This document shows positions 42,880-59,068 of a DNA stretch of 64,000 nt, piece by piece. The first letter of the stretch is position 1. Every line of letters begins with the position of its first letter. Location of the stretch: the NCBI GenBank assembly GCA_050733935.1, contig JBOHUC010000098.1:11033-75032 (forward strand), read 5' to 3'. The notes beneath the pieces were generated by a model. It searched no databases and was not told where the DNA came from. It worked only from the letters and a program-made list of their open reading frames with translations. The position numbers and the translations under genes are program-made. Source of the stretch: Candidatus Eiseniibacteriota bacterium (GTDB taxonomy: Bacteria > Eisenbacteria > RBG-16-71-46 > DASYSL01).

Positions 42880-42946
42880 GCCCGGGACTGTAAAGGATCC
42901 TTGTCAGGCTGTCAAGCGTGCTTTACATGGTCGGCGGGCTCGGCGC

Positions 42947-43090
42947 AACTTGCCCCGGGGCAACCTGCTGCGCAGCAACCTGGGGGTCCGCCAACTTGCC
43001 GCAGGGCAACCTGCTGCGCAAGCAACCTGGGGGTCCCCCAACTTGCCCCGGGGCAACCTGCCGTGCGGCAACCTGCCCGTGGAGCAACCC
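42947..43090. repeat. Three imperfect tandem copies of a roughly 46-bp unit, with 'GCAACCTG' occurring six times, in the divergent intergenic region upstream of lepB
   Basis: Units start at 42947, 42992 and 43039 (CAACTTGCC...GGCAACCTGCTGCGCA(A)GCAACCTGGGGGTCC). Read directly from the sequence. Confidence 0.85.
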
Positions 43091-43106
43091 TGCTATCCTG
43101 CTTTCC

Positions 43107-43715
43107 GTGAACCCCACCGCGAGCCGCGCCCGGAAGCGAATACTCGAACTCCTCGTGATCGGAGCCGCCGTGCTCCTTCAGTTCGCGGCGCGCTCGTCGC
43201 TCGCGGATCACTACATCGTTCCCACGGGCTCGATGGAGCAGACGATCCACCCTGGCGACCGCATCCTGGTCGACAAGAGGGCCTACGGCCTGCGGGTGCC
43301 CTTCACGCGACTCGAGCTCGTTCCGGGCGCCCGTCCTGCGCGGGGCGAGATCGCGGTGTTCGATTCCCCGGAGAATGGTATCCGGCTCATCAAGCGCGTG
43401 GTCGCGATCTCCGGCGACGTGGTCGAAGTGCGAAAGGGCCGGGTGATCGTGAACGGCAAGCCGCTCGCGCTCCCTCCCGACGGACAGCACGAGCGCTTCG
43501 GCGCGCGCACCTCGGACCTCGAGCTCTGCTTCGGCGGTGGACCCGACATCGGACCGGTGCGGGTGCCCGACGGCTCGGTGCTCCTCCTCGGAGATGCGCG
43601 TGGGAACAGCCGCGATGGCCGCACGTTCGGCTTCGTCCGGGAGGACCGGCTCTACGCGCGTGCGATCTCGGTCTTCTTCCGAACTGACCGGGGATTCGTC
43701 TGGCAGACGCTGTGA
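43107..43715 (+). CDS. lepB: Signal peptidase I
   Basis: TM 'ILELLVIGAAVLLQFAA', catalytic Ser box 'PTGSME', Lys box 'LIKRVVA', 'GDARGNSRDGR'. Start GTG at 43107, downstream of the repeats. Confidence 0.8.
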   Translation: MNPTASRARKRILELLVIGAAVLLQFAARSSLADHYIVPTGSMEQTIHPGDRILVDKRAYGLRVPFTRLELVPGARPARGEIAVFDSPENGIRLIKRVVAISGDVVEVRKGRVIVNGKPLALPPDGQHERFGARTSDLELCFGGGPDIGPVRVPDGSVLLLGDARGNSRDGRTFGFVREDRLYARAISVFFRTDRGFVWQTL

Positions 43716-44929: not shown

Positions 44930-45106
44930 AGCACGAGTCACGCTCGTGTCCGCATATGCATCGTCCGGAGGCACAGCTTCCGTCCTTGCCTTGACCGTCC
45001 GGGTTCCATAGAATCGTCGTCGCTCGACATCCCCCGGATTCAACCCCCCCCCGAAGACAGTTCGTCCCCCCCTTGATCTCGCCGGCCGACTGCGGGGGGA
45101 AAGCTC

Positions 45107-48100
45107 TTGCTGCGACGTTTCGTGCTTCTCCTGTTCGCGCTCGTCGTGCCGGCCGCAGTCGCAAGCGCCGTCACGCTCCCGCCTGATTTCTTGGTCGAGA
45201 ACGCCACGCCCGGCATCGGGTGGACGCTTCCGGTTGAAGTCGCATTCCTGCCCGACGGACGTTGGCTCGTGGCCGAGAAGCGCGGCCGCGTCTGGGTGGT
45301 GCGAAACGGCGTGCGTCACCCGGTTCCGATGTGGGAGGGGGAGAGCGAGGTCCTGAACCATCACGATCGCGGGCTCCTCGGGCTCGCCGTCGATCCCCAC
45401 TTCGACACGAACCGTTTCATCTACCTCCTCTACACGGTCGATCCCGACTCGAACGGCGACGACTCGTTCGGGCCCGCGTTCGGGCGCCTGACGCGCTACC
45501 AGGTGAGCGCGAGCGATTCGAACGTGGTCGACCCCGCAACGCGCACGGTTCTCCTCGGGCAAACGTGGGCCGAAGGTCCGCTCGCCGCCTCCCCCTCGCA
45601 CACGATCGGCTGTCTGCGCTTTGGTACCGACGGGTCGCTCCTCGTCGGCACGGGCGACGGCGCGAACTACTCCGATGCCCCCGACGACGGAGGCGACTAT
45701 CCGGACGCGTTCCTGCCGGGCCGCACCGATCCGGTCGAAGACATCGGCGGGCTTCGATCGCAGTACCTGGGGAGCCTGGCCGGGAAGATCCTCCGCATCG
45801 ATCCTGCGACCGGGCACGGTTACCCGAGCAATCCGTTCTTCGACGGCGATCCGATGTCGGTGCGGTCGCGCGTGTGGCTCTACGGCGTGCGCAATCCGTT
45901 CCGCTTCGCGGTGGAGCCCGGCTCGGGCAGCACGAATCCCGCCGACGGTGCTCCGGGGGTGATCCACTTAGGCGACGTCGGATGGGCGCTGTGGGAGGAG
46001 CTCGACATCGCGACCACCGGGGGGAAGAACTTCGGGTGGCCGTGCTATGAGGGTCCGATCCGGCAGAACAAGTACTGGGCGCCTCTCTCCACGCCGGCGC
46101 ACTGTCCGTGCGACTCGATCGCACTTTCGTTCCATGATCCGGCGGACACGACCCGTCCGGTGTCGACCTGGTACCACTACGAACCGGAGCCGGGGATTCC
46201 CGGCGGATTCGAGGGGCAGACCGCGCTCGGCGGGACGTTCTACACCGGACGCCGTTATCCGCCGCAGTACCGGAATCGCCTCTTCATGGGGGACTTCGGA
46301 TCGAGCTGGATCAAGGTGCTGGTCACCGATTCGCTCTATCGCCTGAACGCCGTTCTCCCGTTCGCCGATCAGGCGGACTTCCCGGTCGAGATCGCGGCCG
46401 AGCCGATCTCCGGCGACATCCTCTACATATCGATCAGCCACAACGAGATTCGCCGTATCCGCTACGTGGGGCCGGTGGACAACGTGTCGCCGGTCGCCGT
46501 CGCGGGCGGCGCGCCGTCGTTCGGAGGTGCTCCGGTCGCGGTCGAGTTCTCGAGCGCGGGGACGAGTGACGCGGAGAACGACAGCCTGAGCTTCGCGTGG
46601 CTGTTCGGGGACGGCGACGGATCGAGCGATCCCCATCCGACCCACGTCTACGAGTCGCCCGGCGTCTTTGCGGCCGTGCTCACGGTGACGGATGCGTTCG
46701 GCGGACTCGACCGCGACACGGTGATCGTGACCGTCGTCTCCGGGGAGGGTTTCCCGACGAAGGTCGTGCTCGACAGCTTCGATCGCGCGGACGAGCCGCT
46801 CGGACCGCCGTGGACGGACGACCTTACTGCGCTCGCGACTGTCGCAAACCGCCTTTCGGTCGGCGCCGCCTCGGGCGGAAACGCGAGTGCCCTCTGGGAC
46901 GACTCGATGTTCGGTCCCGTGCAGGAGGCGTTCGTCACCCTGCACGAGCTTCCCGGCGGAACGGGTGCGATCGAGCTCGTGCTGCAGGCGCAGGGAGTCG
47001 AGAGCGGTGACGGATACCTGGGCGTCCGCTACGAGCCGTCGAACGATGCGATCCAGATCCGAACGAGCGAACCGGGGTTCGACCCGGTCGTGCGCGCGAC
47101 GTTCGAGGCCGTGGGCCTGGTCGCAGGCGACCGGCTCGGTGCGCGCACCGGGACTGACGGCCTCGTGGGGGTCTACCGGAACGACGAGCTCCTTGGCGCT
47201 GCGTCCGTCGAGGGCTTCTGGCCGCACGCCGACGAACCGGGACGCATCGGACTCCGCTTCGAGAAAGCGACCGGAGCCGTGGTCGATGATTTCGGCGGAG
47301 GCGGCTCGCTCTTCGTTCCGAACACGCCGCCCGTGGCCGCGATTCTCACGCCGCCCGACAGCTCGTTCTTCGCGGAAGGGGACACCGTGCGCTTGATCGG
47401 CTCCGGTGTCGATGCGTTGACGTCTGCCGACAGCCTCGACTTCATCTGGGAAGTCGACACTCATCACAACGAGCACACGCATCCTTCGTCCTTCACGCTC
47501 GAAGGCGACAGTGCGTTCTTCCTCGGGGAGTCGCACGACGATGGGAGCGGCGTGTACCTCCACGTCCGGTTCATCGTGGCCGACTCGGCGGGACTCGCCG
47601 ACACGGCGTCGGTCGATCTCTTTCCGGAGGCGGACCTCCGGCCGACGATCGTCTCGGCCCTGCCGGAGTCGGTCGCGGCGGGGGACTCGCTGTTCGTCAC
47701 GCTCCGGCTTGCGAACGACGGCCGTATGCTCGCGCATCGCTCGCGCTGGCGGCTCGATCTCGGCGGCGTGCTGCTCGCCGAGGGCGACACGACCGTGAGC
47801 GGCGGGGACAGCGTCTCGATCGCGCTTGCGATCGGAAACCTGCCTGCGATCGCTCCCGGCGCGCGGGCCCTTCGACTGGTGGCCGATGCGCTCGGAGTCG
47901 TCGTCGAAACCGACGAGACCGACAACGAGAGCGCGCTCTTTCTCTATGTTCGGACGCCGCCGGATGCGGAGCCGCCGAATCTCACGCTCCTCTTCCCGAA
48001 CGGGGGCGAGGCGTGGCCGCTCGGAGCCGTGCACAGCGTCCTGTGGAGCGCCTCGGACAACACGGGGGTCACGGCCGTCACGGTCGAGCTCTCGCGCGAC

Positions 48101-49165
48101 GGGGGAAACACGTACGCGCTCCTCGACTCGGGCCTTGCTCATACCGGCGAGCTCGAGCTCGTCGTCACCGGCCCGGCCAGCGATTCGGTCCTCGTGCGCG
48201 TCACGGCGCGCGATGCCGCGGGCAACACGAGCATCGACGTGAGCGACGTGTACTTCGCGATCGTGGTCGACGAGAAGACCCCTGCGGTCTTTCTGCTCTC
48301 GCCGAACGGCGGTGAAGCGTGGCCCGTGGGATTCGCGCGGACGATTCGCTGGACCGCCGAGGACCACGTGGGCGTCACGGCGATCGATCTCTTCGTCTCC
48401 TATGACGACGGCGAGTCCTATGCCGAGATCGCCGAGGGGTTGCCCGATACGGGCGAGCACGATTGGGTCGTGGCCGGGCCGCTCACGGCCTCTGCCCGGA
48501 TCCAGATCATTGCCCGCGACGCAGTCGGGAATGCGGCGGCGGACGCGAGCGACGCGGCGTTCTCGCTCGTCGACGGAACCCCGCCTGCGTTCACGCTCGG
48601 GCCGACCGCCACGCCGAACGAGGCCGACGCGGCGATCGCGTGGCAAACCGATGAATTGGCCACGGGTTGCGTGCGCTGGGGACTCACCGGCTCGTTCGGC
48701 GACTCGACCGAGACGGCCTCCCCGAGCCTCGGCCAGGCCGTGAATCTGACCGGGCTCACCCCCGAAATGACGTATCATTATTGCGTCGTTGTCCGCGATA
48801 CGGCCGGCAACGTGGCCGTCGCCGCCCCGGACTCATTTACAACCCTCGCGAGCACCGTCGCCGCCGACCCGGCGCCGCATACGCTCGCGCTTTCGAACCC
48901 CTATCCGATCCCGGCCCATGGACACGTCTCGCTGGTTCTCGACCTCCCGCAGCGTTCGACCGTGGACTTCGCCGTCTACGACGTGCGGGGCCGTCGTGTC
49001 TGGTCGAGCGCGCGTTACTCCCGCGAGCCCGGGCGCTGGTTGCTGGAATGGCAGGGCCTCGACGACCGTGGCGCCCGCGTTCCGGCCGGTGTCTATCTCG
49101 CGTGCGTGACCGCAAACGGGCGGCTCTTGAGCCGGCGGATCACGCTCCTTTCCGGGGAGCGTTAG
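45107..49165 (+). CDS. Giant secreted protein: glucose/sorbosone-dehydrogenase-like beta-propeller, PKD domain, CARDB/FN3-like Ig repeats, and T9SS/FlgD-Ig C-terminal domain
   Basis: TTG start and signal peptide 'MLRRFVLLLFALVVPAAVASA'. GSDH-like 'AFLPDGRWLVAEKRGRVWVV...HHDRGLLGLAVDP'. PKD 'FGDGDGSSDPHPTHVYESPGVFAAVLTVTD'. C-terminal domain 'LSNPYPIPAHGHVSLVLDLP...FAVYDVRGRRVW...GVYLACVTANGRLLSRRITLL'. Confidence 0.8.
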   Translation: MLRRFVLLLFALVVPAAVASAVTLPPDFLVENATPGIGWTLPVEVAFLPDGRWLVAEKRGRVWVVRNGVRHPVPMWEGESEVLNHHDRGLLGLAVDPHFDTNRFIYLLYTVDPDSNGDDSFGPAFGRLTRYQVSASDSNVVDPATRTVLLGQTWAEGPLAASPSHTIGCLRFGTDGSLLVGTGDGANYSDAPDDGGDYPDAFLPGRTDPVEDIGGLRSQYLGSLAGKILRIDPATGHGYPSNPFFDGDPMSVRSRVWLYGVRNPFRFAVEPGSGSTNPADGAPGVIHLGDVGWALWEELDIATTGGKNFGWPCYEGPIRQNKYWAPLSTPAHCPCDSIALSFHDPADTTRPVSTWYHYEPEPGIPGGFEGQTALGGTFYTGRRYPPQYRNRLFMGDFGSSWIKVLVTDSLYRLNAVLPFADQADFPVEIAAEPISGDILYISISHNEIRRIRYVGPVDNVSPVAVAGGAPSFGGAPVAVEFSSAGTSDAENDSLSFAWLFGDGDGSSDPHPTHVYESPGVFAAVLTVTDAFGGLDRDTVIVTVVSGEGFPTKVVLDSFDRADEPLGPPWTDDLTALATVANRLSVGAASGGNASALWDDSMFGPVQEAFVTLHELPGGTGAIELVLQAQGVESGDGYLGVRYEPSNDAIQIRTSEPGFDPVVRATFEAVGLVAGDRLGARTGTDGLVGVYRNDELLGAASVEGFWPHADEPGRIGLRFEKATGAVVDDFGGGGSLFVPNTPPVAAILTPPDSSFFAEGDTVRLIGSGVDALTSADSLDFIWEVDTHHNEHTHPSSFTLEGDSAFFLGESHDDGSGVYLHVRFIVADSAGLADTASVDLFPEADLRPTIVSALPESVAAGDSLFVTLRLANDGRMLAHRSRWRLDLGGVLLAEGDTTVSGGDSVSIALAIGNLPAIAPGARALRLVADALGVVVETDETDNESALFLYVRTPPDAEPPNLTLLFPNGGEAWPLGAVHSVLWSASDNTGVTAVTVELSRDGGNTYALLDSGLAHTGELELVVTGPASDSVLVRVTARDAAGNTSIDVSDVYFAIVVDEKTPAVFLLSPNGGEAWPVGFARTIRWTAEDHVGVTAIDLFVSYDDGESYAEIAEGLPDTGEHDWVVAGPLTASARIQIIARDAVGNAAADASDAAFSLVDGTPPAFTLGPTATPNEADAAIAWQTDELATGCVRWGLTGSFGDSTETASPSLGQAVNLTGLTPEMTYHYCVVVRDTAGNVAVAAPDSFTTLASTVAADPAPHTLALSNPYPIPAHGHVSLVLDLPQRSTVDFAVYDVRGRRVWSSARYSREPGRWLLEWQGLDDRGARVPAGVYLACVTANGRLLSRRITLLSGER

Positions 49166-52100
49166 GGCTCGTTATCGCGCTGACCGCCCTACCCGTTCTC
49201 CTCCTCACGCGCGACAGCACCGGGCAGAGCTTCCCGCCGAACTTCACGCACGAGAACGCGACGCCGGGCCTCACCTGGGTCCTTCCGACGACGCTCGACT
49301 TCCTGCCCGATGGCCGCTGGCTCGTGGCCGAGAAGCGCGGACGCGTGTGGGTCGTGAAGAACGGCGTGAAGCACCCGACTCCGTTCTGGGACGGTGCCTT
49401 CGAAGTGCTCGATCAGCACGACCGCGGGCTCCTCGGACTCGCCGTCGATCCGAACTTCGCGACCAACCGCTACGTGTACTTCCTCTACACAGTGGACCCG
49501 GACTCGAATCAGATCGACGACTCGGCGCCGGGATTCGGCCGTCTGACGCGCTATCAGATGAGCGCGACGGACTCGAACGCGGTCGATCCCGCGTCGCGTA
49601 CGGTCCTGATGGGGGCGACGTGGCGGGAGGGCCCGGTGTCCGCGTCCGAGTCCCACACGGTCGGAAGCGTGCACTTCGGCGCCGACGGCTCGCTCCTCGT
49701 GAGCTGCGGGGACGGCGCGAACTTCGGCTTCACGCCCGACATCGGCGGCGAGCACCCGTTCGCGTTCCTGCCCGGGCGTGCGGACTCCTCGGAGGACATC
49801 GGCGCGCTGCGATCGCAGTACCTGGGAAGCCTGTGCGGGAAGATCCTCCGCATCGATCCCATGACCGGTCACGGTTATCCCACGAATCCATTCTGGGACG
49901 GGAACCCGATGTCCGTGCGCTCCCGCGTCTGGCAGTACGGCTTGCGCAATCCGTTCCGCTTCACGGTCGAGCCGGGCACCGGCAACAGCGATCCTGCGTT
50001 CGGAGATCCGGGGATCCTCCACATCGGAGACGTCGGCTGGCGCCAGTGGGAGGAGCTCGACATCGCCGCCGAAGGCGGAAAGAACTTCGGCTGGCCGTGT
50101 CGCGAGGGTCCGCGGCGGCTCGACGAGTACTGGCCGCCGAATCCGCAGCCCTCGCACTGCGGGTGCGATTCGCTCGGGCTCACGTACCACAATCTGGCGG
50201 ACACGACCGGGCCGGTGTCGACGTGGCACCACGATTTCCAGAGCTTGAGCATCCCCACCGGGATCACGGGAATCACCGCCGTGGGCGGGACGTTCTACAA
50301 GGGGCGTCGTTATCCGGCGCAGTACCGCGACCGGCTCTTCATGGCCGACTACGGGTACAACTGGATCAAGGTGCTCGAGACGGATTCGCTGCATCATCTG
50401 ACCGGAGTGCTGCCGTTCATGTCGGGGATCGACGGGCCCGTCGACATCGTCCGCGAGCCGGGAAGCGCGGGCGATCTCCTCTACGTGGCCATCGTCGACA
50501 GCGAGATCCGCCGCATTCGATACACGGGCCCGGTCGACAACCTTCCGCCGAATGTGTTCGCGAGCGTGAATCCAACGTTCGGAGTCTCGCCGCTCACGGT
50601 CAACTTCTCGTCGGCGGGCACGAACGATCCCGAGGGGGACAGCCTGAGCTACGTGTGGCTGTTCGGGGACGGGGAGGGCTCGACGGAACCGAATCCCGTG
50701 CACGTCTACCAGAATCCCGGGCTCTACCTCGCGCTGGTCACCGTGACCGATACGTTCGGGGGTCTCAACCGGGCCGTGGTCTTCGTTCCGGTCTCGAATC
50801 CGGCCCCCTTCCCTTCGACGGGGATCCTCGACGCGTTCAACCGTCCGGACCAATCGCTCGGGCCTCCGTGGACGGACGATCTCGCGGCTCTTCGGGTCGC
50901 GGGCAACCGGCTCACCGTGACTTCGGGAGGCGGTGGCGGAGGCGGCAACGCGAGCGCTCTGTGGGACGCGACGATCTTCGCGTCCCGGCAGGAGGTGTTC
51001 ACGAGGCTCGTGACGCTGCCGCCCGCCCCCGGAAAGTTCGAGCTCATGGTCCAGGGTCTGGGAAGCGAGAGCGCGGACGGGTACGTCGGCGTGCGCTACG
51101 ACGTCGGACCGCAGAAGCTCGAGATTCGAACGATCGCGCCCTCGGGAACGGTGACCGTGCACCGCGTGTTCGCGCCAATCGTGTTCGCTCCCGGAGACCG
51201 GATCGGTGTTCGCACCTCCGGGGACGGCATCGTGGCCGTCTACCGGAACGCCGAGCTCGTCGCGGCCACGACGCTCATCGACTGGCCGTACTCGCAGCTC
51301 ACCGGGCGGATCGGCGTGCGCTTCGAGAACGCCTCCGGAGCCGTGCTCGATGACTTCGGGGGTGGGTCCGTGCCGCTCGTTCCGAACTTTCCTCCCTCCG
51401 CGACGATTCTCGCTCCGCCCGACAGCTCGTTTTTCGTCGCGGCGGACACGGTCCACCTTTCGGGAACGGGCACGGATCCGAACACGCCGTCCGACAGTCT
51501 TTCGTACCTGTGGGAGGCGGATCTCCACCACAACGTGCACGTCCATCCCAACGTGTTCCACCTCACCGGGAGAGACACCTCCTTCGTGGGCGAGAACCAC
51601 GACGACGGAACGGGCGTCTACCTGCACGTGCGCTTCATCGTGTCCGATCCGGCCGGGCTCGCCGACACCACCGCGATCGACCTGTTCCCGGAGGCGGATC
51701 TCAAGCCTTCGATTGCGATCGTCGTCCCCGAGACGCTCCACGTCGGGGATCCGCTCGGGGCCGTGTTCCGCATTGCGAACCCGGGGCGGATGCTCGCGCG
51801 GCGCTCCCACTGGCGGCTTACGTTCGGGGACTCGCTGCTCGCCGAGGGAGACGTCATCGTGCCGCCGCGGGATTCCGTGTCGTTCTTCCGCGGGTTCCCG
51901 TCGACGCCCTTGATCGCACCCGGCCCGCGTGAGCTGCGGCTGGTCGTGGATGCGAACGGCGAGGTCGTCGAGACCGACGAGACCAACAACCACGCCGTCG
52001 ATTCGCTCTTCGTCCGTCCGGTCCTCGATCCCGTGCCGCCCATCGTGGTCCTCCTCGCGCCGGGAGGGGGCGACGGGTGGCCGATCGGCTCCATGCAGTC

Positions 52101-52953
52101 CGTGCGCTGGAGCGCCACGGACAACATCGGAGTCACTGCGATCGCGATCGAGCTCTCCCGCGACGCGGGTGCGTCGTTCGCCGTCCTCGATTCGGGGCTC
52201 GCGCACTCGGGTCATCACGAGTTCCTCGTCGAGGGTCCTCCGTGTGACTCGGCGGTCGTTCGAATCACGGCCCGCGACGCGCAGGGGAACCTCGCGTCCG
52301 ACACGAGCGACGGGATGTTCCAGATCATGTTCGACGAGAAGTCGCCGTCGGTCTTTCTGGTCACGCCGAACGGGGGCGAGGCGTGGCACAAGGGAAGCGT
52401 GCACCCGCTCCAGTGGATTGCGCAGGACAACGTGGGCGTGACTCGCGTCGATCTTGCGGTGAGCTACGACAACGGAGGCTCGTTCGTGCCGATCGCGACC
52501 GGCCTCCCGAACACCGGTGCGTACGGCTGGTACGTGGAGGGCGCGCTCACGAGCCTCGCGCGCATTCAGGTGGTCACATACGACGCCGTCGGCAACGCCG
52601 CCGCCGATCAGAGTGACGGGCCGTTCACGATTCTCGAAGGCATCGTAGGAACGGAGCCCGTCCCGTTCGTGCCGACGGTGCTCGCGCTCTCGAATCCGTA
52701 CCCGAGTCCTTCGCGGGGGCGCGTGTCGCTCGTGCTCGATCTTCCCGCCCCCGCGAACGTGAGCCTCGACGTGTACGACCTGCGTGGCCGCCGCGTGTGG
52801 TCGGGACCGTCGGGGATGCGGGAGGCGGGCCGGTGGACGCTCGACTGGCCCGGTCGCACCGAGGCGGGCGCACGCATGGCTCCGGGCGTCTATCTTGCGC
52901 TCGTGACCGCAGATGGCCGGGCGATGAGCCGCCGGATCGTAGTCCTCGACTGA
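49048..52953 (+). CDS. Tandem paralog of the preceding giant secreted GSDH-PKD-T9SS-CTD protein
   Basis: Same domain order, with roughly 60-70% identity by eye. The start is uncertain: ATG at 49048 overlaps the previous gene by 118 nt, with GTG at 49102 as an alternative. Signal-like 'LGLVIALTALPVLLLT'. Confidence 0.75.
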   Translation: MAGPRRPWRPRSGRCLSRVRDRKRAALEPADHAPFRGALGLVIALTALPVLLLTRDSTGQSFPPNFTHENATPGLTWVLPTTLDFLPDGRWLVAEKRGRVWVVKNGVKHPTPFWDGAFEVLDQHDRGLLGLAVDPNFATNRYVYFLYTVDPDSNQIDDSAPGFGRLTRYQMSATDSNAVDPASRTVLMGATWREGPVSASESHTVGSVHFGADGSLLVSCGDGANFGFTPDIGGEHPFAFLPGRADSSEDIGALRSQYLGSLCGKILRIDPMTGHGYPTNPFWDGNPMSVRSRVWQYGLRNPFRFTVEPGTGNSDPAFGDPGILHIGDVGWRQWEELDIAAEGGKNFGWPCREGPRRLDEYWPPNPQPSHCGCDSLGLTYHNLADTTGPVSTWHHDFQSLSIPTGITGITAVGGTFYKGRRYPAQYRDRLFMADYGYNWIKVLETDSLHHLTGVLPFMSGIDGPVDIVREPGSAGDLLYVAIVDSEIRRIRYTGPVDNLPPNVFASVNPTFGVSPLTVNFSSAGTNDPEGDSLSYVWLFGDGEGSTEPNPVHVYQNPGLYLALVTVTDTFGGLNRAVVFVPVSNPAPFPSTGILDAFNRPDQSLGPPWTDDLAALRVAGNRLTVTSGGGGGGGNASALWDATIFASRQEVFTRLVTLPPAPGKFELMVQGLGSESADGYVGVRYDVGPQKLEIRTIAPSGTVTVHRVFAPIVFAPGDRIGVRTSGDGIVAVYRNAELVAATTLIDWPYSQLTGRIGVRFENASGAVLDDFGGGSVPLVPNFPPSATILAPPDSSFFVAADTVHLSGTGTDPNTPSDSLSYLWEADLHHNVHVHPNVFHLTGRDTSFVGENHDDGTGVYLHVRFIVSDPAGLADTTAIDLFPEADLKPSIAIVVPETLHVGDPLGAVFRIANPGRMLARRSHWRLTFGDSLLAEGDVIVPPRDSVSFFRGFPSTPLIAPGPRELRLVVDANGEVVETDETNNHAVDSLFVRPVLDPVPPIVVLLAPGGGDGWPIGSMQSVRWSATDNIGVTAIAIELSRDAGASFAVLDSGLAHSGHHEFLVEGPPCDSAVVRITARDAQGNLASDTSDGMFQIMFDEKSPSVFLVTPNGGEAWHKGSVHPLQWIAQDNVGVTRVDLAVSYDNGGSFVPIATGLPNTGAYGWYVEGALTSLARIQVVTYDAVGNAAADQSDGPFTILEGIVGTEPVPFVPTVLALSNPYPSPSRGRVSLVLDLPAPANVSLDVYDLRGRRVWSGPSGMREAGRWTLDWPGRTEAGARMAPGVYLALVTADGRAMSRRIVVLD

Positions 52954-53819: not shown

Positions 53820-54581
53820 ATGAGCCACGCGACACAGCCTTCGTCCCATCCGTCCGCCAAGCCTTCCGCACAGCCTTCCACGCCTAAATCGGCCGATCTC
53901 CGGCGCCAGTTCGTCTCGTTCTACGGGCTCAAGCTCTCGCCCGCCTGGCGGGGGCTCTCCGCCGAGGCGAAAGCGCAGGCCAAGCGCGAGTTCGTGGCGG
54001 CCTGCGAGAGCTTCAAGGCCGAGGGCGGGATCCTCGTTCCGTACTCGTGTGTGGGCATCCGCGGGGACGTGGACGTCATGCTGTGGCGCATCCATCACGA
54101 GCTCGAGCCGCTCCAAAGGCACGGCGCGGCCCTCATGCGCACGTCGCTTGGGCCCTATCTGGCCACGCCGTACGCGCTCCTCGGGATGACCAAGCGCTCG
54201 ACCTACGTGGATCACATTCATCCCGACCACGAGGACGACCGGCTCAAGATCGTGCCCGGGCTCCTCAAGTACATCTTCATCTACCCGTTCGTGAAGACCC
54301 GGGAGTGGTACGGGCTCGACGCGGAAACGCGCCAGAAGATGATGCGCGAGCACATCCACATTGGAACGACCTACCCGTCGGTCAAGCTGAACACGACCTA
54401 TTCGTTCGGTCTCGACGACCAGGAGTTCGTGGTCGCGTTCGAGAGCGACCGGCCCGACGACTTCCTCGATCTCGTCCAGGACCTGCGCGAAACCGCCGCG
54501 AGCCGGTACACGTTGCGCGACACTCCGACATTCACGTGCGTGCGGCACGAGCTCGCGACCGTGCTCGATACTGTCGGCTGA
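53820..54581 (+). CDS. Chlorite dismutase family protein (HemQ/coproheme decarboxylase-like)
   Basis: 'FVSFYGLKLSPAWRGLSAEAKAQAKREF...', 'HIHIGTTYPSVKLNTTYSFGLDDQEFVVAFESDRPDDFLDLVQDLR'. Confidence 0.75.
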   Translation: MSHATQPSSHPSAKPSAQPSTPKSADLRRQFVSFYGLKLSPAWRGLSAEAKAQAKREFVAACESFKAEGGILVPYSCVGIRGDVDVMLWRIHHELEPLQRHGAALMRTSLGPYLATPYALLGMTKRSTYVDHIHPDHEDDRLKIVPGLLKYIFIYPFVKTREWYGLDAETRQKMMREHIHIGTTYPSVKLNTTYSFGLDDQEFVVAFESDRPDDFLDLVQDLRETAASRYTLRDTPTFTCVRHELATVLDTVG

Positions 54582-54594
54582 TCGCCCGGCGGGG

Positions 54595-55272
54595 TTGCAT
54601 GCCATGAGTGGTGTTCAGGATCGACTGCTGAACTTTCTGCTTGGTTGGGCCCTCCTGACGGCAGCCCTGCCGACCCTGATTGTCTATCGCGCAGCCATGC
54701 AACCGCGATACCAGTGGGGTCTGTTCGGTATCGTCGGAGAAGGAGTGACGCCTGGCCTCCTGGTCATCGCCGCTGCGGCCATTCTGGCGTGGTCCGCGGT
54801 CGTGCTCGGTAGCGTGAGAACCCACGCAGGCGGACTTCTTCTGATCGGGCTCAACGCGCTGTGGTTTACTTCTATCCTGGTTGCGGCGCTTCGATTGGGA
54901 TCGCAGATGACGTTGCGTGGCGATGCCTACGGCATACGAATCAATTTGGCGATTCTGGGGCCTCTCGTATTCGGGGCGCTGCTGCTCTTGAGCATTCGCT
55001 GGTGGTGGACACGACGACAAAACCTGGTCGGCTTCGAGGCCTTGTCCACATTGAAGGTGACCCTGACGTCAGGAGCGCGTCGCGTCCTCTGCGTGGCAGC
55101 GGTCGCCCTGTTGCCTGTCATCCTTGTTCTCTTCGCGATCGGCGATGGTGCTCGTCACACCTGGGCTGACCGAGTGGCAGTCGGTTGTGTCATTGTGCAG
55201 TGTCTGTGTGTCCTTGCTGCGTTGCGTGACGCCACGGTGGACACGGTCCGCTCGCCTGTGGTGGCGGCCTAA
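54595..55272 (+). CDS. Hypothetical integral membrane protein (6 TM)
   Basis: Hydrophobic helices with diverse composition. Confidence 0.5.
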   Translation: MHAMSGVQDRLLNFLLGWALLTAALPTLIVYRAAMQPRYQWGLFGIVGEGVTPGLLVIAAAAILAWSAVVLGSVRTHAGGLLLIGLNALWFTSILVAALRLGSQMTLRGDAYGIRINLAILGPLVFGALLLLSIRWWWTRRQNLVGFEALSTLKVTLTSGARRVLCVAAVALLPVILVLFAIGDGARHTWADRVAVGCVIVQCLCVLAALRDATVDTVRSPVVAA

Positions 55273-55309
55273 CAACTCGGCCGCTCGCACCTGAGCAGGA
55301 GACGTTAAG

Positions 55310-55435
55310 CCCGGGGGACGAGTCGTCTCTCTCAGGGGTCCGTACAATTTGTACAAGCTTGTACGCGCGTACGCTCACGTACGGTCGCGTACAAATTGTA
55401 CAAGCCCGTGGGAGAGACCCCTTCACCCCCGGGCT
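55310..55435. repeat. About 125-bp nested imperfect palindrome rich in GTAC-containing sub-palindromes, lying between convergent genes
   Basis: Outer arms GCCCGGGGG / CCCCCGGGC. Inner 13-bp arms GTACAATTTGTAC / GTACAAATTGTAC are exact reverse complements. Central perfect palindrome GTACGCGCGTAC. GTAC occurs eight times. AT-rich core in a 69% GC genome. Confidence 0.8.
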
Positions 55436-55464
55436 TTACATTGGGTCCAGCCGGGCCCAGCCGG

Positions 55465-56175
55465 CTACTTCAACGTCTGTCCGGGCTCGAGCGCGACGAT
55501 CTCGGTCTTCGTGCCGGCCGTGAGGTGTCGCCGGAGCTCGTCGGGCGTGCCGGTGAGCGGCGGAAACGTGCCGTAGTGCATCGGGACCACCCAGCGCGGC
55601 CCGAGGAGCTCGATTGCCTTCGCCGCTTCGCGCGGTCCCATCGTGAAGAGCCCCCCGATCGGCAGGCAGGCCACGTCGGGCGCGTAGAGCTCGCCGATCA
55701 GCCGCATGTCCCCGAACACGTTCGTGTCGCCCGCGTGATAGATGCGGAAGCCGTTTTCGAGCGTGACCACGAAGCCGCAGGCCTCGCCGCCGACCAGGAC
55801 CCCCTTCGAGCCGTTGATTCCCGAGGAGTGATCCGCGTGCACCATCTGCACCTCGAGCCCGGCCACGGTCTGCGATCCGCCTTTGTTCATCGGCCGGATG
55901 TTCTTCGCGCCCTCGTTCTCGAGCCAGAGACAGATCTCGAACATGCCCGGGATCTCGGGCTGATGCTTCCGGACGAGGTCGGGGGCGCTCCCTGCATGGT
56001 CGGCATGACCGTGGGTGAGGAGCAGCATGTCCACGCGCTCGAACGACTTCCAGCGATCGGGACATTTCGGATTGTCGATCCAGGGGTCGAACAGGACGTG
56101 CTTGCCGCCGGGGGTCTTGAGGTGGAACGCCGCGTGGCCGAGCCAGGTGAGCTCGAAATCCTTTCCGATCGTCAT
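55465..56175 (-). CDS. Metal-dependent hydrolase, MBL fold (UPF0173 family)
   Basis: 'LTHGHADH' (HxHxDH) and 'IYHAGDT'. Confidence 0.8.
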   Translation of the reverse strand: MTIGKDFELTWLGHAAFHLKTPGGKHVLFDPWIDNPKCPDRWKSFERVDMLLLTHGHADHAGSAPDLVRKHQPEIPGMFEICLWLENEGAKNIRPMNKGGSQTVAGLEVQMVHADHSSGINGSKGVLVGGEACGFVVTLENGFRIYHAGDTNVFGDMRLIGELYAPDVACLPIGGLFTMGPREAAKAIELLGPRWVVPMHYGTFPPLTGTPDELRRHLTAGTKTEIVALEPGQTLK

Positions 56176-56232
56176 GAACGCCTCCGGGACAGGGGGCCGT
56201 CACCCTAACCCGTGAGCGGAAAAACGACCACA

Positions 56233-56267
56233 AAACCGAAGGCCTCCTCGAAAGGAGGCCTCGGTTT
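56233..56267 (-). terminator. Rho-independent terminator of the repeat-protein gene
   Basis: Perfect 15-bp stem AAACCGAAGGCCTCCT/AGGAGGCCTCGGTTT with a 4-nt loop. On the minus strand it is followed by UUUUGUGGUCGUUUUU. Confidence 0.65.
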
Positions 56268-56307
56268 CGGGCTCAAAGAGGTGCTGTCGAAGGTGCGGCC
56301 CTGAATC

Positions 56308-56775
56308 TTACTCGTCCGCCGTCATCTTGCGGGTCGTGGCAACCGAACCGCGAGCGGTGGCGACTGAACCGCGCGCCGTGGCGACCGAGCCGCGAGCGGT
56401 GGCAACCGAACCGCGCGCCGTGGCAACCGAACCGCGCGCCGTAGCAACGGAACCGCGGGCGGTAGCGACGGAACCGCGCGAGGTCGCGAGCGTGCCGCGG
56501 GGGCTGGTCAGCGTTCCGCGAGGCGTGGCAGCCGAACCGCGGGGGCTGGTCAGCGTTCCGCGAGGGGTTGCGGCCGAACCGCGAGGGCTGGTCAGCGTGC
56601 CGCGAGGCGTAGCCGCCGAACCGCGAGGGCTGGTCAGCGTACCGCGAGGCGTGGCAGCCGAACCGCGCGGGGTGGCAACCGAACCGCGAGCGGTGGAGAC
56701 GTTCGACTTGGACTCTGTCTTCTTCGCCGGAGCCTCGATTCTCGAGGCGACTTTGGGTGTCAGCTTCTTCGACAT
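56308..56775 (-). CDS. Intrinsically disordered repeat protein: Lys-rich N-terminus, then 4x 14-aa 'GSAATPRGTLTSPR' and 7x 7-aa 'GSVATAR' repeats
   Basis: Strong Shine-Dalgarno-like AAGAGGAGG 8 nt upstream of ATG on the minus strand, and its own terminator. The mirror plus-strand ORF lacks a Shine-Dalgarno-like sequence. Composition is R/S/T/A/G/P only after residue 30. Confidence 0.65.
   Translation of the reverse strand: MSKKLTPKVASRIEAPAKKTESKSNVSTARGSVATPRGSAATPRGTLTSPRGSAATPRGTLTSPRGSAATPRGTLTSPRGSAATPRGTLTSPRGTLATSRGSVATARGSVATARGSVATARGSVATARGSVATARGSVATARGSVATTRKMTADE
56327..56706. repeat. About 18 tandem copies of a 21-bp unit (consensus GTGGCAACCGAACCGCGAGCG, alternating with CTGGTCAGCGTTCCGCGAGGC) inside the repeat-protein gene
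   Basis: Read directly from the sequence. Not CRISPR-like: there are no unique spacers and the unit is in-frame coding. Confidence 0.85.
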
Positions 56776-57043: not shown

Positions 57044-59068
57044 CTACAACCAGAACCCCATCCGCAGCCAGCGCCAAACACCCCGGAGCCAGCGGACGAT
57101 GAGCGTTTCTGGTGAAACGTCCACCCGGGCCCGGCCGGTCATACCGCTCCGAAGGGTCGGCCCGGGGTTCGCCACGAACCCGAGGACCTTGAACACGGTC
57201 GGGCGTCCCGGCCGGCTCGGCTCGCCCTGCCAGGAGACCTCGGTGACGCGGCCACGGAACTGCCGATCCGGGTAGCCCAGCACCTTGAGCCTAAGCGTCT
57301 GCCCCGGCCGGATGCGGGCCACATCGGTCTCCGAAACGCCGATCTCGACCCGCAGCGTGTCGAGCGGGGAGACCTGGCAGAAGACCTCCCCGGCCTCGAG
57401 ATACGTCCCCGCCCGTTCGGCCAGGTTCGGGGTCAGCACATAGCCGGTCACCGGGGCGGTGAGCTGCGACCGCGCGTTGTCCCGCTCGAGAGCCGCCAGG
57501 CGGGCCATGGCTCCCTCGCGGTCGAGCTCGGCCATCCGGCGGGCGAACGGATCGGCACCCCGTTCGGCCTGCCCGCCCGCGGCTTGCGCGTGGTCGGCTT
57601 CCGCCCGAAGGGTCGAAAGCCGGGCCGCGAGTCCCTCGGGCTCGAGGACCGCGAGCCGCTGCCCGGCGAGAACCCGCTGACCGGAACGGGCCTCCACCGA
57701 GCGGACGATCCCGGTCGACGCCGCCCGGACGGAAACTTCGTTTGCAGGGAGCGTGCGGCCGTCCCCGCCCACGGCCGCGGGCCAGGGAATCGCTCCGACG
57801 AGGAGCAGGCCCACACCGATCGCAATCAGGATTCCCCGTCGGCGGGCCGGGCTCATGCGCTGCCAGCGTCGGCGGCGCTCGGCGAGCGGGGTGAGCGCGC
57901 TCACCATCGGAAGCTGCCGGTAGAGCTCCGCATTCCGGATCGCGACCGAGAGCTGGCCGACCAGGACCCCGAGGGCCTCGCGGTCGCTCTCGCTGTCGAA
58001 CTGGCCCTCGGCGTACGACTCGAGGAGCAGCACACCGACCGGGCCCTGGTCGTCCCGGAGCCCGAGCACGAGCGCGCCTCGCATCTCGCCCTTGAAATAG
58101 TCGAGCCAGACGTCGCGTCCTGGGTGGTCCTCGTTCTGCTCCACCTCCGAGAGCCCGACGACCAGGCTGTCAGGCTTCTTGAAGCCGATCCACTCGAGCA
58201 ACTTCTCGAGCCCGAGCCGCTCGGCCGTGTTCGCATCGACGCGCGGGAAATCGCTCACCGCACGGATCTTCAGGCGCTGGCCCTCGAACAGGGCGAGCAC
58301 AGCGCGCTGCCGCTCGACGATCGCACCGGAGAGGTTCACGGCGGTCTGGAGCACGTGGTCCACGTCGAGCGTCGAGGAGAGCTCGCGGCTGATGCGCAGG
58401 AGCGCGTCCAGGTCCTGCAGGCGGTTCTGGTTCTGCTCGAACAGCAGGGCGCGATCGATCGCGAGCGCCGCCTGATCGGCGACGTGATCGAGGAACAGGC
58501 GGGCGTCCTCGGGATAGGGCTCGCCGCCCGGCGCCGGTCCCATGGCCATGACCGCGATCGTCCTGTTCTCGAGCAGGAGGGGGACGAAGAGATCGAGCAG
58601 CGGTGTGAGGTTCGCTTCCGGATCCGCCTCGAGCGCTTCGGCCTTCCACTCCGCGAACGCCTCGCTCTCCTCGGCCTGCGCGACGTCAAACGTGCTCGCT
58701 TCGTTCTCGGCCAGATTGCAGAGCGCGAGGTCGGGGAGGCTCACACCGAGATGCTCGCGGGTCTCCTCGTCGAACCCGATCGACGCGAGCAGCTCGAAGC
58801 TCCCTTCGCCGTGAGAAAGGAAGAGCGCTCCGCTCCGCGCCATCACGGAGCGGGTGGCGACGTCGAGCGCCGCCGCCGCGGCGGACGTCGCGTCGTGCGT
58901 CTCGACGAGACTGTTGGAGGCTTCGCTCATCGCGAGCACGCGACTCGTGATCTCCGAGAGCTGGGCGTAGGAAAGATCGAGCTGCGCCTGCAGCCGGTCG
59001 CGCTCCTCGGCCAGGCGCGCACGCTCCTGCTCGAGGGCTTCTATGCGGTCGTCTTTGGGCTCGCTCAC
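57044..59068 (-). CDS. Coiled-coil + tandem GAF domains + single TM + HlyD/membrane-fusion-like periplasmic domain
   Basis: N-terminal 'IEALEQERARLAEERDRLQAQL'. GAF-like blocks, the second ending '...LGVLVGQLSVAIRNAELYRQL'. TM 'ILIAIGVGLLLVGAIPW'. HlyD-like 'LAVLEPEGLAARLSTLRAE...LTAPVTGYV...' beta-barrel. 4-nt overlap with the upstream gene. Confidence 0.7.
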   Translation of the reverse strand: MSEPKDDRIEALEQERARLAEERDRLQAQLDLSYAQLSEITSRVLAMSEASNSLVETHDATSAAAAALDVATRSVMARSGALFLSHGEGSFELLASIGFDEETREHLGVSLPDLALCNLAENEASTFDVAQAEESEAFAEWKAEALEADPEANLTPLLDLFVPLLLENRTIAVMAMGPAPGGEPYPEDARLFLDHVADQAALAIDRALLFEQNQNRLQDLDALLRISRELSSTLDVDHVLQTAVNLSGAIVERQRAVLALFEGQRLKIRAVSDFPRVDANTAERLGLEKLLEWIGFKKPDSLVVGLSEVEQNEDHPGRDVWLDYFKGEMRGALVLGLRDDQGPVGVLLLESYAEGQFDSESDREALGVLVGQLSVAIRNAELYRQLPMVSALTPLAERRRRWQRMSPARRRGILIAIGVGLLLVGAIPWPAAVGGDGRTLPANEVSVRAASTGIVRSVEARSGQRVLAGQRLAVLEPEGLAARLSTLRAEADHAQAAGGQAERGADPFARRMAELDREGAMARLAALERDNARSQLTAPVTGYVLTPNLAERAGTYLEAGEVFCQVSPLDTLRVEIGVSETDVARIRPGQTLRLKVLGYPDRQFRGRVTEVSWQGEPSRPGRPTVFKVLGFVANPGPTLRSGMTGRARVDVSPETLIVRWLRGVWRWLRMGFWL

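What the first reader, a model, noticed from the sequence alone, without database searches (positions are those of the whole stretch)
55310..55435. GTAC-rich nested palindromic element with AT-rich core between convergent genes
A roughly 125-bp element with perfect outer GC clamps (GCCCGGGGG...CCCCCGGGC), a pair of exactly reverse-complementary 13-mers (GTACAATTTGTAC / GTACAAATTGTAC), a central perfect palindrome GTACGCGCGTAC, and eight GTAC tetranucleotides. The low-GC core is conspicuous in a 69% GC genome. It lies where two genes converge but lacks U-tracts, so it is not a canonical intrinsic terminator. Candidates include a bidirectional hairpin terminator or RNA stabiliser, a binding array for a dimeric regulator recognising GTAC-N5-GTAC, a MITE-like repeat, or a restriction/modification-related hotspot (GTAC is the RsaI/Csp6I-type site).
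Basis: seen in the sequence. Interest (0 to 1): 0.6.

Follow-up and report, generated by a model that had tools for sequence, protein, structure and literature searches.

The report
GTAC-box hairpin between convergent genes
A single-copy, about 136-base DNA/RNA hairpin with regularly spaced GTAC motifs sits where two genes of an uncultured Eiseniibacteriota bacterium end tail to tail; a sister species keeps both its shape and its GTAC motifs, so it is probably an unusual two-way transcription stop that also binds a protein, though its function is untested.

Summary
Window 55304-55439 is the longest local inverted repeat in the 64 kb (RNA MFE about -84 kcal/mol, z = -8.8 on both strands) and its only dense GTAC cluster.

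A sister Eiseniibacteriota MAG carries an orthologous element at the same junction, 3' of the same MBL-fold hydrolase gene. The two copies are only 55% identical, but three things are kept:
- arm lengths;
- hairpin energy (0 of 1000 neutral simulations fold as well);
- five of seven GTAC boxes (permutation p = 0.0008).

Six more distant relatives lack the element, and four of them have a canonical bidirectional intrinsic terminator at the equivalent junction. I found no further copy in 146 kb of related DNA or in the viral, plasmid, phage or JGI metagenome searches. It matches no Rfam family.

GTAC boxes 9-10 bp apart resemble Phd/YefM antitoxin operators, but no such gene lies within 64 kb.

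Best reading (confidence 0.4): a lineage-specific hairpin that terminates or insulates transcripts from both directions, with an embedded GTAC-box protein-binding array. Rivals are an orphan operator array, a MITE-like repeat and a recombination site. Moderately interesting; function unproven.

The parts
55304..55439 (.). Whole imperfect-palindrome element: 62-nt arms and a 12-nt centre
   Evidence: the repeat finder I1. Folds at z = -8.8 on both strands. CM R1 scores 156.7 bits here.
55307..55317 (+). Left outer GC clamp, AAGCCCGGGGG. The AAGCCCG part is conserved in the sister species.
55426..55436 (+). Right outer GC clamp, CCCCCGGGCTT. Followed by TACATTGG, and GGCTTTACA.TGG is conserved in the sister species.
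55325..55338 (+). Second stem, left arm: GTCTCTCTCA GGGG. The sequence differs in L005 but pairing is kept.
   Evidence: compensatory pairs
55404..55418 (+). Second stem, right arm: GCCC G TGGGAGAGAC
55342..55401 (.). A/T-enriched core (48% GC) carrying seven GTAC boxes spaced 9, 10, 8, 10, 10 and 9 bp. Boxes 1, 3, 5, 6 and 7 are conserved in L005.
55341..55358 (+). Unit 1, CGTACAATTTGTACAAGC: the 13-mer palindrome plus flanks
55388..55405 (+). Unit 2, CGTACAAATTGTACAAGC: a direct repeat of unit 1 (17 of 18 identical) that also contains its reverse complement
55361..55372 (.). Perfect palindrome GTACGCGCGTAC near the apex. Only its first GTAC is conserved in L005.
54604..55272 (+). Upstream convergent gene: a 222-aa multi-pass membrane protein. 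GC3 is 0.67 against 0.88-0.90 in its neighbours. Absent in L005.
55465..56175 (-). Convergent MBL-fold metal-dependent hydrolase gene. Its stop codon lies 25 nt from the hairpin base.
56239..56262 (-). Canonical bidirectional intrinsic terminator upstream of the hydrolase gene. It is the orthologue of the terminator that directly follows the chlorite-dismutase-like gene in relatives that lack the element.

Best explanation
The element is a lineage-specific hairpin under selection. It serves as the shared 3'-end structure of the two convergent transcription units.

Proposed mechanism: when transcribed from either side it folds into a stem-loop with arms of about 60 nt and a GC-clamped base. That structure stops or insulates read-through into the opposing gene and protects the 3' ends of the transcripts. 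It does the job that a canonical A-tract/hairpin/U-tract bidirectional terminator does at the equivalent junction in related genomes.

Embedded in the stem is a sequence-constrained array of GTAC boxes on a 9-10 bp repeat. This array is most likely a binding site for a GTAC-box DNA-binding protein of the Phd/YefM kind, encoded elsewhere in the genome.

Shown here:
- the structure, its statistical strength and its position;
- orthology with the sister species, and retention of the fold with compensatory changes;
- excess conservation of the GTAC boxes;
- replacement of the canonical terminator.

Inferred, not shown:
- that the element is transcribed;
- that it terminates or stabilises transcripts;
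- that any protein binds the boxes.
For: 1. Position. The element fills the spacer between two stop codons, 32 nt after 55272 and 25 nt before 55465. In L005 it sits the same distance, about 27 nt, from the hydrolase stop.

2. Replacement of a terminator. Four relatives (L245, L248, L250, L251) have a canonical bidirectional terminator, AAAACCGAAGGCCTCC..GGAGGCCTTCGGTTT, directly after the chlorite-dismutase-like gene. In the window that same terminator now lies at 56239-56262, on the far side of the hydrolase gene. The new convergent junction therefore has no other terminator.

3. Structure under selection. The window and L005 elements align almost without gaps but are only 55% identical. L005 still folds at -65.4 kcal/mol, against -38.2 +/- 6.7 for the window sequence carrying 63 random substitutions (0 of 1000 as low). 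The reverse test gives the same result. Six pairs show compensatory double changes, and both arm spacers are exactly 28 nt in both species.

4. Strand. The consensus fold is better on the + strand (-34.6 against -23.65 kcal/mol). L005 folds at -77.5 on the + strand against -62.9 on the other. This points to a transcribed strand that uses G-U pairs.

5. Terminator-like base. The stem base is GC-rich and is followed by TTTACATT on the + strand.

6. GTAC boxes. Identity is 86% inside the boxes and 47% outside. Five of seven boxes are fully conserved (permutation p = 0.0008). In L005 the two GTAC-N5-GTRC units are direct repeats (both GTACGTTTTGTRC) whose spacers cannot pair with each other. The constraint there is on sequence, not pairing.

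7. Precedent for GTAC-box binding. YefM dimers read a 'core GTAC box' with T/A flanks (PMC7544224; PMC1802561). Arrays of TGTACA boxes at 9-10 bp spacing lie directly upstream of PhdYeFM_antitox + PIN gene pairs in five loci from two phyla.
Against: - There is no expression or 3'-end data.
- The U-tract is short and interrupted: 5 of 8 T in the window, 4 of 8 in L005, and weaker on the - strand.
- A 60-nt-arm hairpin is far longer than termination needs.
- Only two independent sequences exist, so the covariation rests on n = 2.
- The strand asymmetry is absent in the window copy (-83.8 against -81.5 kcal/mol).
- No Phd/YefM-like ORF lies in the 64 kb.
- The box spacing (N5-N6) differs from the characterised YefM (N8) and Phd (N9) operators.
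- Arm complementarity could in principle be maintained by DNA-level palindrome homogenisation rather than by selection on RNA.
Confidence: 0.4

Rival explanations
1. The primary function is at the double-stranded DNA level. The core would be an orphan operator-like array of GTAC boxes, bound cooperatively by a Phd/YefM-type antitoxin or another GTAC-box protein encoded elsewhere. It could act as a roadblock, a decoy or titration site, or a nucleoprotein landmark. The hairpin potential would be secondary.
For: - The GTAC boxes are the best-conserved part of the element.
- Spacers are direct repeats and non-complementary in L005.
- The 9-10 bp phasing puts all boxes on one face of B-DNA.
- YefM recognises TTGTACA boxes.
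- Near-identical arrays precede phd-vapC pairs in Nitrospirales and Acidobacteriota.
- An orphan array lies between convergent genes in Nitrospirales locus L041.
Against: - It does not explain the GC-rich outer arms (28 nt each), which change sequence between species yet stay complementary.
- There is no promoter or gene to regulate at a tail-to-tail junction.
- No antitoxin gene lies within 64 kb.
- Several boxes lack the T/A flanks that S. aureus YefM requires.
Confidence: 0.2
2. The element is a non-autonomous mobile or selfish palindromic repeat (MITE-, REP/BIME- or ERIC-like). It inserted in the ancestor of the two species and has no host function.
For: - Size (about 130 bp) and imperfect-palindrome form are typical of such repeats.
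- Presence and absence among relatives looks like an insertion.
- The window copy is flanked by TTA...TTA.
- The region has seen further insertion: the low-GC3 membrane gene.
Against: - Only one copy was found in the 64-kb window and about 82 kb of related loci with a covariance model.
- No copy was found in viral contigs, JGI metagenomes (strict pattern), plasmids or phages.
- A neutral orthologous copy should have lost its fold at 45% divergence, and this one has not.
- In L005 the flanks are inverted (TAA/TTA), so they are part of the stem and not a target-site duplication.
Confidence: 0.12
3. The element is a hairpin recombination site that marks a gene-insertion hotspot, attC-like in logic. 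The hydrolase gene arrived with it, and a second gene later inserted against its other flank.
For: - The hydrolase gene plus hairpin were inserted between the chlorite-dismutase-like gene and its old terminator.
- The membrane gene, of foreign composition, lies against the other side in the window only.
- Both genes end 25-32 nt from the hairpin.
- The size falls within the attC range.
Against: - The attC core sites are not met: GTTRRRY-like sequence lies at the 5' end and RYYYAAC-like at the 3' end on both strands, the reverse of attC.
- No integrase, transposase or cassette array lies nearby.
- It rests on only two events.
Confidence: 0.06
4. The element is a cluster of GTAC methylation or restriction sites, acting as an epigenetic switch or R-M hotspot.
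For: Seven GTAC sites in 60 bp, phased by one helical turn.
Against: - GTAC is over-represented, not avoided, in the window (143 against 65.6 +/- 6.8).
- No methyltransferase or endonuclease was among the 27 ORFs run against Pfam (about 31.1-44.9 kb and 52.8-63.3 kb); the first 31 kb of the window was not annotated.
- There is no promoter to switch.
- It does not explain the covarying outer arms.
Confidence: 0.03

Closest known systems
Bidirectional intrinsic (Rho-independent) terminators at convergent genes
   Same: It sits between two stop codons, has a GC-rich stem base, and occupies the slot where relatives have a canonical A-tract/hairpin/U-tract terminator.
   Different: The arms are about 60 nt rather than 5-15 bp, with internal loops and an A/T-rich core. 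The U-tract is short and interrupted. Conserved GTAC sequence boxes sit inside the stem.
Phd/YefM antitoxin operators (GTAC-box palindromes; PMC1802561, PMC7544224)
   Same: It has TTGTACAA-type palindromic boxes repeated about one helical turn apart. The GTACGTTTTGTACAA string in L005 also occurs in Nitrospirales arrays upstream of phd-vapC pairs.
   Different: It is not in a promoter, and no antitoxin or toxin gene is adjacent or within 64 kb. Box spacing is N5-N6 rather than N8-N9. The array is enclosed by GC-rich inverted repeats.
BIME/RIP elements of enterobacteria: inverted REP hairpins flanking an IHF site (from my own knowledge)
   Same: It is a composite design, with palindromic arms enclosing a protein-binding segment. 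It lies in 3' intergenic regions, often between convergent genes, and has been linked to mRNA 3'-end stabilisation.
   Different: BIMEs are multi-copy dispersed families with a GTAG/REP consensus. This element is single-copy in all the sequence examined and has no sequence similarity to them.
ERIC, Correia and other MITE-like intergenic palindromes (from my own knowledge)
   Same: It is an imperfect palindrome of about 125-135 bp in a transcribed intergenic spacer.
   Different: No additional copies were found, there is no consistent target-site duplication, and the fold is kept across species by compensatory change.
Integron attC sites (from my own knowledge of the R''/R' consensus)
   Same: It is an imperfect hairpin in the 57-141 bp size range, immediately 3' of a single inserted ORF, with structure more conserved than sequence.
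   Different: The core-site polarity is reversed, and there is no integrase, attI or cassette array.

Membership tests
Canonical intrinsic terminator | Short GC-rich hairpin (stem about 5-15 bp, loop 3-8 nt) | tested here: not met
   The arms are 62 nt with internal loops. The consensus scan did not call the element.
Canonical intrinsic terminator | U-tract immediately 3' of the stem | tested here: inconclusive
   On the + strand the tail is TTTACATT (5 of 8 T) in the window and TTTACAAT (4 of 8) in L005. On the - strand it is TTAACGTC (3 of 8).
Canonical intrinsic terminator | Located at the 3' end of a transcription unit | tested here: met
   25-32 nt from both stop codons.
Canonical intrinsic terminator | Causes transcript release | not testable with these tools
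   Needs Term-seq or in vitro transcription.
Phd/YefM operator | Palindromic GTAC core boxes with T/A flanks | tested here: met
   TTGTACAA at 55349-55356 and 55396-55403. Other boxes are half-flanked; compare PMC7544224.
Phd/YefM operator | Boxes separated by 8-9 bp (GTAC-N8/9-GTAC) | tested here: not met
   Spacing here is N5-N6. Uncharacterised arrays upstream of phd-vapC pairs in Nitrospirales also use N5.
Phd/YefM operator | Overlaps the promoter of an adjacent antitoxin-toxin operon | tested here: not met
   The flanks are convergent 3' ends and no promoter-like site was found. No Phd/YefM-like ORF in the 64 kb.
Phd/YefM operator | Bound by the antitoxin dimer | not testable with these tools
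   Needs EMSA or DAP-seq with host antitoxins.
MITE / REP / ERIC-type dispersed repeat | Multiple copies at unrelated loci in one genome | tested here: inconclusive
   One copy in 64 kb and none in about 82 kb of related loci. The genome-wide scan was saturated by unrelated matches.
MITE / REP / ERIC-type dispersed repeat | Terminal inverted repeats | tested here: met
   AAGCCCGGGGG / CCCCCGGGCTT.
MITE / REP / ERIC-type dispersed repeat | Target-site duplication | tested here: not met
   TTA/TTA flanks occur in the window only. In L005 the flanks TAA/TTA are inverted and form part of the stem.
Integron attC | R'' (RYYYAAC) at the 5' end and R' (GTTRRRY) at the 3' end | tested here: not met
   GTTAAGC lies at the 5' end and GCTTTAC at the 3' end on the + strand, and the - strand is equally reversed.
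Integron attC | Integron integrase, attI or cassette array nearby | tested here: not met
   The neighbours are housekeeping genes.
Any Rfam RNA family | Covariance-model match | tested here: not met
   No hit overlaps the element even at E <= 10. Only two chance matches appeared elsewhere in the 1.2 kb scanned.

The most novel reading that the evidence does not exclude
The element is a new kind of composite regulatory site: a protein-gated bidirectional terminator. An array of GTAC boxes is bound by a Phd/YefM-type antitoxin or another GTAC-box protein encoded elsewhere. That array sits inside a hairpin shared by two convergent genes. Protein occupancy of the duplex form and extrusion or folding of the hairpin form would then compete. 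This would couple toxin-antitoxin or stress status to read-through and antisense transcription across the junction.

A related unexcluded variant is that the hairpin is a recombination hotspot next to which single genes are inserted tail-first. Two such events are visible here.
Probability: 0.1. Interest if true: 0.7.

Novelty: new variant of a known kind. Interest (0 to 1): 0.4.

Why it matters
If the best reading holds, a high-GC candidate phylum with almost no experimental biology replaced a textbook terminator with a much longer hairpin. That hairpin carries an operator-like array conserved in sequence.

This would be an example of antitoxin-type GTAC-box arrays acting away from their own promoters. 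Orphan arrays also appear in Nitrospirales, where one lies between convergent genes.

It would also be a natural case in which RNA or DNA structure and protein binding are superimposed at a 3' junction.

Practically, the element is small and has clear, separable features: outer arms, GTAC boxes and spacers. These can be mutated independently in a reporter.

If it turns out to be only a fancy terminator or a low-copy selfish palindrome, it is of local interest only.

Tried and rejected
- **Rfam**: a permissive search found nothing on the element.
- **Genome-collection scan**: All 113 loci were unrelated: coding GTNGTN repeats, other operators, Nitrospirales arrays. None had the outer architecture. 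This used the only genome scan, so the source genomes could not be scanned whole.
- **Tighter pattern**: GTACNNNTTGTRCAA-N20-36-GGCTTTACA gave 0 viral hits and 5 chance hits in JGI metagenomes.
- **Left-half pattern**: on viral contigs it returned only unspecific hits.
- **blastn** against plasmids and phages found nothing.
- **Synteny walk**: I followed hydrolase homologues (65-83% identity) and chlorite-dismutase-like homologues (73-89%). Only L005 carries the element.
- **Phd/YefM gene**: phmmer over all ORFs of 40 aa or more in the window found none.
- **Promoter scan**: none in 54400-56400.
- **attC reading**: rejected on core-site polarity.
- **Small conserved ORF inside the element**: rejected. 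The two copies are 55% identical with conserved blocks that are palindromic, and no coding pattern is visible.
- **Membrane ORF as an artefact**: considered because its GC3 is 0.67, then rejected because it has 13 homologues. The 235-aa ORF next to the hydrolase gene in L007 is not its homologue.

Full report
**1. What is there**

Window 55304-55439 is an imperfect palindrome with 62-nt arms that are 74% complementary, separated by 12 nt. It is the longest inverted repeat in the 64-kb window and the only local one among the 25 longest.

As RNA it folds at -83.8 kcal/mol on the + strand and -81.5 on the - strand. Dinucleotide shuffles give about -46.5 +/- 4, so z is about -8.8, and 0 of 200 shuffles fold as well.

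From outside to inside the anatomy is as follows:
- an 11-bp GC clamp, AAGCCCGGGGG (55307-55317) / CCCCCGGGCTT (55426-55436);
- a second stem, GTCTCTCTCA-GGGG (55325-55338) / GCCC-G-TGGGAGAGAC (55404-55418);
- a 60-bp core (55342-55401) of only 48% GC, in a window of 66.3% GC.

The core holds seven GTACs at 55342, 55351, 55361, 55369, 55379, 55389 and 55398, spaced 9, 10, 8, 10, 10 and 9 bp.

The two 13-mers, GTACAATTTGTAC and GTACAAATTGTAC, are exact reverse complements. Each is also a palindrome about its central base. With their flanks they form an 18-nt direct repeat, CGTACAAWTTGTACAAGC, 47 bp apart.

A cluster of seven GTACs in 60 bp was never approached in simulation. The maximum was 4 in 300 Markov simulations and 5 in 5000 random placements.

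GTAC as such is not avoided in the window: there are 143 sites against 65.6 +/- 6.8 expected.

**2. Context**

The window comes from a Candidatus Eiseniibacteriota MAG. Identical proteins and an identical element occur in GCA_975254425.1 and in a Logan assembly of SRR27067778.

On the + strand the order is a DUF1579 gene, a chlorite-dismutase-like gene (53820-54581) and a 222-aa membrane-protein gene (54604-55272).

On the - strand the order is a GAF/HlyD-like gene (57044-59068), a small ORF with 21-nt repeats, and an MBL-fold hydrolase gene (55465-56175).

The element fills the tail-to-tail spacer. It starts 32 nt after one stop codon and ends 25 nt before the other.

Pfam searches of 27 ORFs (about 31.1-44.9 kb and 52.8-63.3 kb) found no transposase, integrase or restriction-modification gene, and a phmmer scan of every ORF in the window found no Phd/YefM-type antitoxin. 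The first 31 kb of the window was not annotated.

The element matches no Rfam family, even at E <= 10.

**3. Comparative evidence**

*The sister species.* Its hydrolase is 83% identical and its chlorite-dismutase-like protein 89% identical (GCA_973526205.1, locus L005). It carries a related element at the same place, 3' of the hydrolase gene. There the element lies directly between that gene and the chlorite-dismutase-like gene, because the membrane gene is absent.

*What differs and what is kept.* The two elements align with a single 2-nt gap at the apex and are only 55% identical. Conserved are:
- the blocks AAGCCCG, GTAC..TTTGTRC, TGTAC, GTAC, CGTAC...TTGTACAA and GGCTTTACA.TGG;
- the exact 28-nt length of both outer spacers.

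The outer stems have different sequences in the two species but still pair. Six pairs show double compensatory changes.

*A neutral-divergence test.* I put 63 random substitutions into the window copy. That gave -38.2 +/- 6.7 kcal/mol, and none of 1000 trials reached the real L005 value of -65.4. The reverse test gave the same result. The fold is therefore maintained.

*The GTAC boxes.* Identity is 86% inside the boxes and 47% outside. Five of the seven boxes are fully conserved (permutation p = 0.0008).

In L005 the two GTAC-N5-GTRC units are direct repeats with the same spacer, GTTTT. Those spacers cannot pair with each other. At least that part is constrained in sequence and not only in pairing.

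*Strand.* The + strand is favoured as the folded strand in the consensus (-34.6 against -23.65 kcal/mol) and in L005 (-77.5 against -62.9). It is not favoured in the window copy.

**4. Distribution**

More distant relatives lack the element:
- hydrolase loci L007-L012 (65-70% identity) have no spacer or no similar sequence;
- an 81%-identical hydrolase on a short JGI contig has a convergent gene 5 nt after its stop;
- chlorite-dismutase-like loci L245-L251 have no GTAC cluster.

A covariance model built from the two copies finds only those two copies in about 146 kb of Eiseniibacteriota sequence.

In loci fished out by the core pattern it matches only the core, model positions about 40-107.

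Pattern scans of viral contigs found nothing. JGI metagenome contigs gave five chance hits. blastn against plasmids and phages found nothing.

Whether the two source genomes hold further copies is therefore not settled.

**5. How the junction arose**

In L245, L248, L250 and L251 the chlorite-dismutase-like gene is followed directly by a canonical bidirectional terminator, AAAACCGAAGGCCTCC-loop-GGAGGCCTTCGGTTT. After that comes a convergent small ORF.

The window still has that terminator, at 56239-56262. It now lies between the small ORF and the start of the hydrolase gene. L005 has an equivalent hairpin at 5838-5887.

So in the common ancestor of the two species, the hydrolase gene and the GTAC hairpin were inserted between the chlorite-dismutase-like gene and its terminator. 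The new tail-to-tail junction has no other terminator.

Convincing canonical terminators are rare in this window. Counts are at or below the shuffle expectation, and only the 56239-56262 site is clear.

In the window lineage a further gene was later inserted between the chlorite-dismutase-like gene and the hairpin. This is the membrane protein, with GC3 of 0.67 against 0.88-0.90 in its neighbours. It is a real gene, with 13 homologues including one in Acidobacteriota.

**6. The GTAC boxes and what is known**

The literature held here shows the following.
- YefM binds paired TGTACA palindromes in its own promoter (PMC1802561).
- In the crystal structure, each YefM dimer reads a 'core GTAC box' with flanking thymines. 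Spacing is GTAC-N8-GTAC for YefM and N9 for Phd (PMC7544224).

Among the loci returned by my pattern scan, Nitrospirales and Acidobacteriota MAGs carry arrays of five to nine TGTACA boxes at 9-10 bp spacing. These lie directly upstream of gene pairs that Pfam identifies as PhdYeFM_antitox plus PIN.

The same Nitrospirales genomes also hold arrays with no adjacent antitoxin gene. One of them (L041) lies between convergent helicase and GBBH-like genes.

The core of the element therefore looks like an antitoxin-type operator array. But it is not in a promoter, has no cognate gene nearby, has N5-N6 spacing, and is wrapped in GC-rich inverted repeats.

**7. Interpretation**

Two constraints are superimposed: one on structure (outer arms, overall fold) and one on sequence (GTAC boxes).

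The structural constraint, the position and the replacement of a canonical terminator are best explained by a transcript-level hairpin. It would terminate or insulate convergent transcription and protect 3' ends.

The sequence constraint is best explained by a GTAC-box binding protein.

I commit to the composite reading at confidence 0.4. The rivals and their confidences are:
- DNA-level orphan operator array as the main function: 0.2;
- low-copy MITE/REP-like selfish palindrome: 0.12;
- recombination or insertion hotspot: 0.06;
- methylation or R-M cluster: 0.03;
- the remainder is unassigned.

Transcription, termination and protein binding are all inferred. None could be tested here.

**8. 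Novelty and score**

The element is not a member of any family I tested: canonical intrinsic terminator, Phd/YefM operator, MITE/REP, attC or Rfam.

It works most like a bidirectional terminator. In design it is most like BIME/RIP-type composites, where palindromic arms enclose a protein site. That last comparison rests on my own knowledge.

I rate it a new variant of a known kind, with interest 0.4. There is real evidence of selection and an unusual combination of features. Against that, there are only two sequences, a narrow clade and no functional data.

Noticed in passing
window 56266-56720: Fifteen tandem copies of a 21-nt unit (7-aa repeats) lie inside a small ORF, 56308-56775 (-), 155 aa, with only a weak DUF7856 match. 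Relatives carry small ORFs of variable length at the same position (L245 3364-3576, L248 3556-3732, L250 1506-1847, L251 7106-7576).
   Followed up: partly
window 56239-56262: A textbook bidirectional intrinsic terminator, AAACCGAGGCCTCC-TTTCG-AGGAGGCCTTCGGTTTT. It is conserved across at least five related genomes and is the only convincing canonical terminator in 60 kb.
   Followed up: yes
window 54604-55272: A membrane-protein gene with GC3 of 0.67 against 0.88-0.90 in its neighbours. It is absent from the sister genome and has a rare family of 13 homologues, including one in an Acidobacteriota MAG. It is probably a recent horizontal insertion abutting the hairpin.
   Followed up: partly
window 45077-49165 and 48667-52953: Two tandem paralogous giant genes (about 1350-1430 aa, GSDH + PKD domains), 70-79% identical at the DNA level with a register of about 4055-4064 bp.
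   Followed up: no
window 42928-43089: Three to four copies of a 46-nt repeat (CAACTTGCC.C.GGGCAACCTGC...) at the 5' end of the signal peptidase S26 ORF (42918-43715).
   Followed up: no
window 18092-18640 and 27353-27889: Two stretches 70-80% identical, 9249-9261 bp apart, lying within ORFs 16681-18699 and 25672-27960. They look like paralogous genes.
   Followed up: no
whole window: GTAC occurs 143 times against 65.6 +/- 6.8 expected from dinucleotide shuffles. It is over-represented, which argues against a GTAC-specific restriction system in the host.
   Followed up: partly
L013 6473-6531, L033 7316-7374, L059 6468-6526, L073 5958-6007, L092 5188-5235; orphan arrays L041 1406-1455, L019 2544-2602, L076 333-382, L042 7388-7456: Nitrospirales MAGs and one Acidobacteriota MAG carry dispersed arrays of 5-9 TGTACA boxes at 9-10 bp spacing. 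Five arrays sit directly upstream of PhdYeFM_antitox + PIN pairs. Others have no adjacent antitoxin gene: one lies between convergent genes and one lies next to an IS481-like transposase.
   Followed up: partly
L021 6830-6898, L030 2953-3021, L085 1237-1305, L088 4552-4620: Dehalococcoidia and Chloroflexota MAGs share a repeated unit, GGGTACATCG..GTAGCTGG.AAGTACATTTTGTACCCCTG, in tandem pairs. Its nature is unknown.
   Followed up: no
window 31042-31054: GTACTATCTGTAC is the only other near match (2 mismatches) to the 13-mer in the window. It lies inside ORF 29120-31105 and is probably chance.
   Followed up: no
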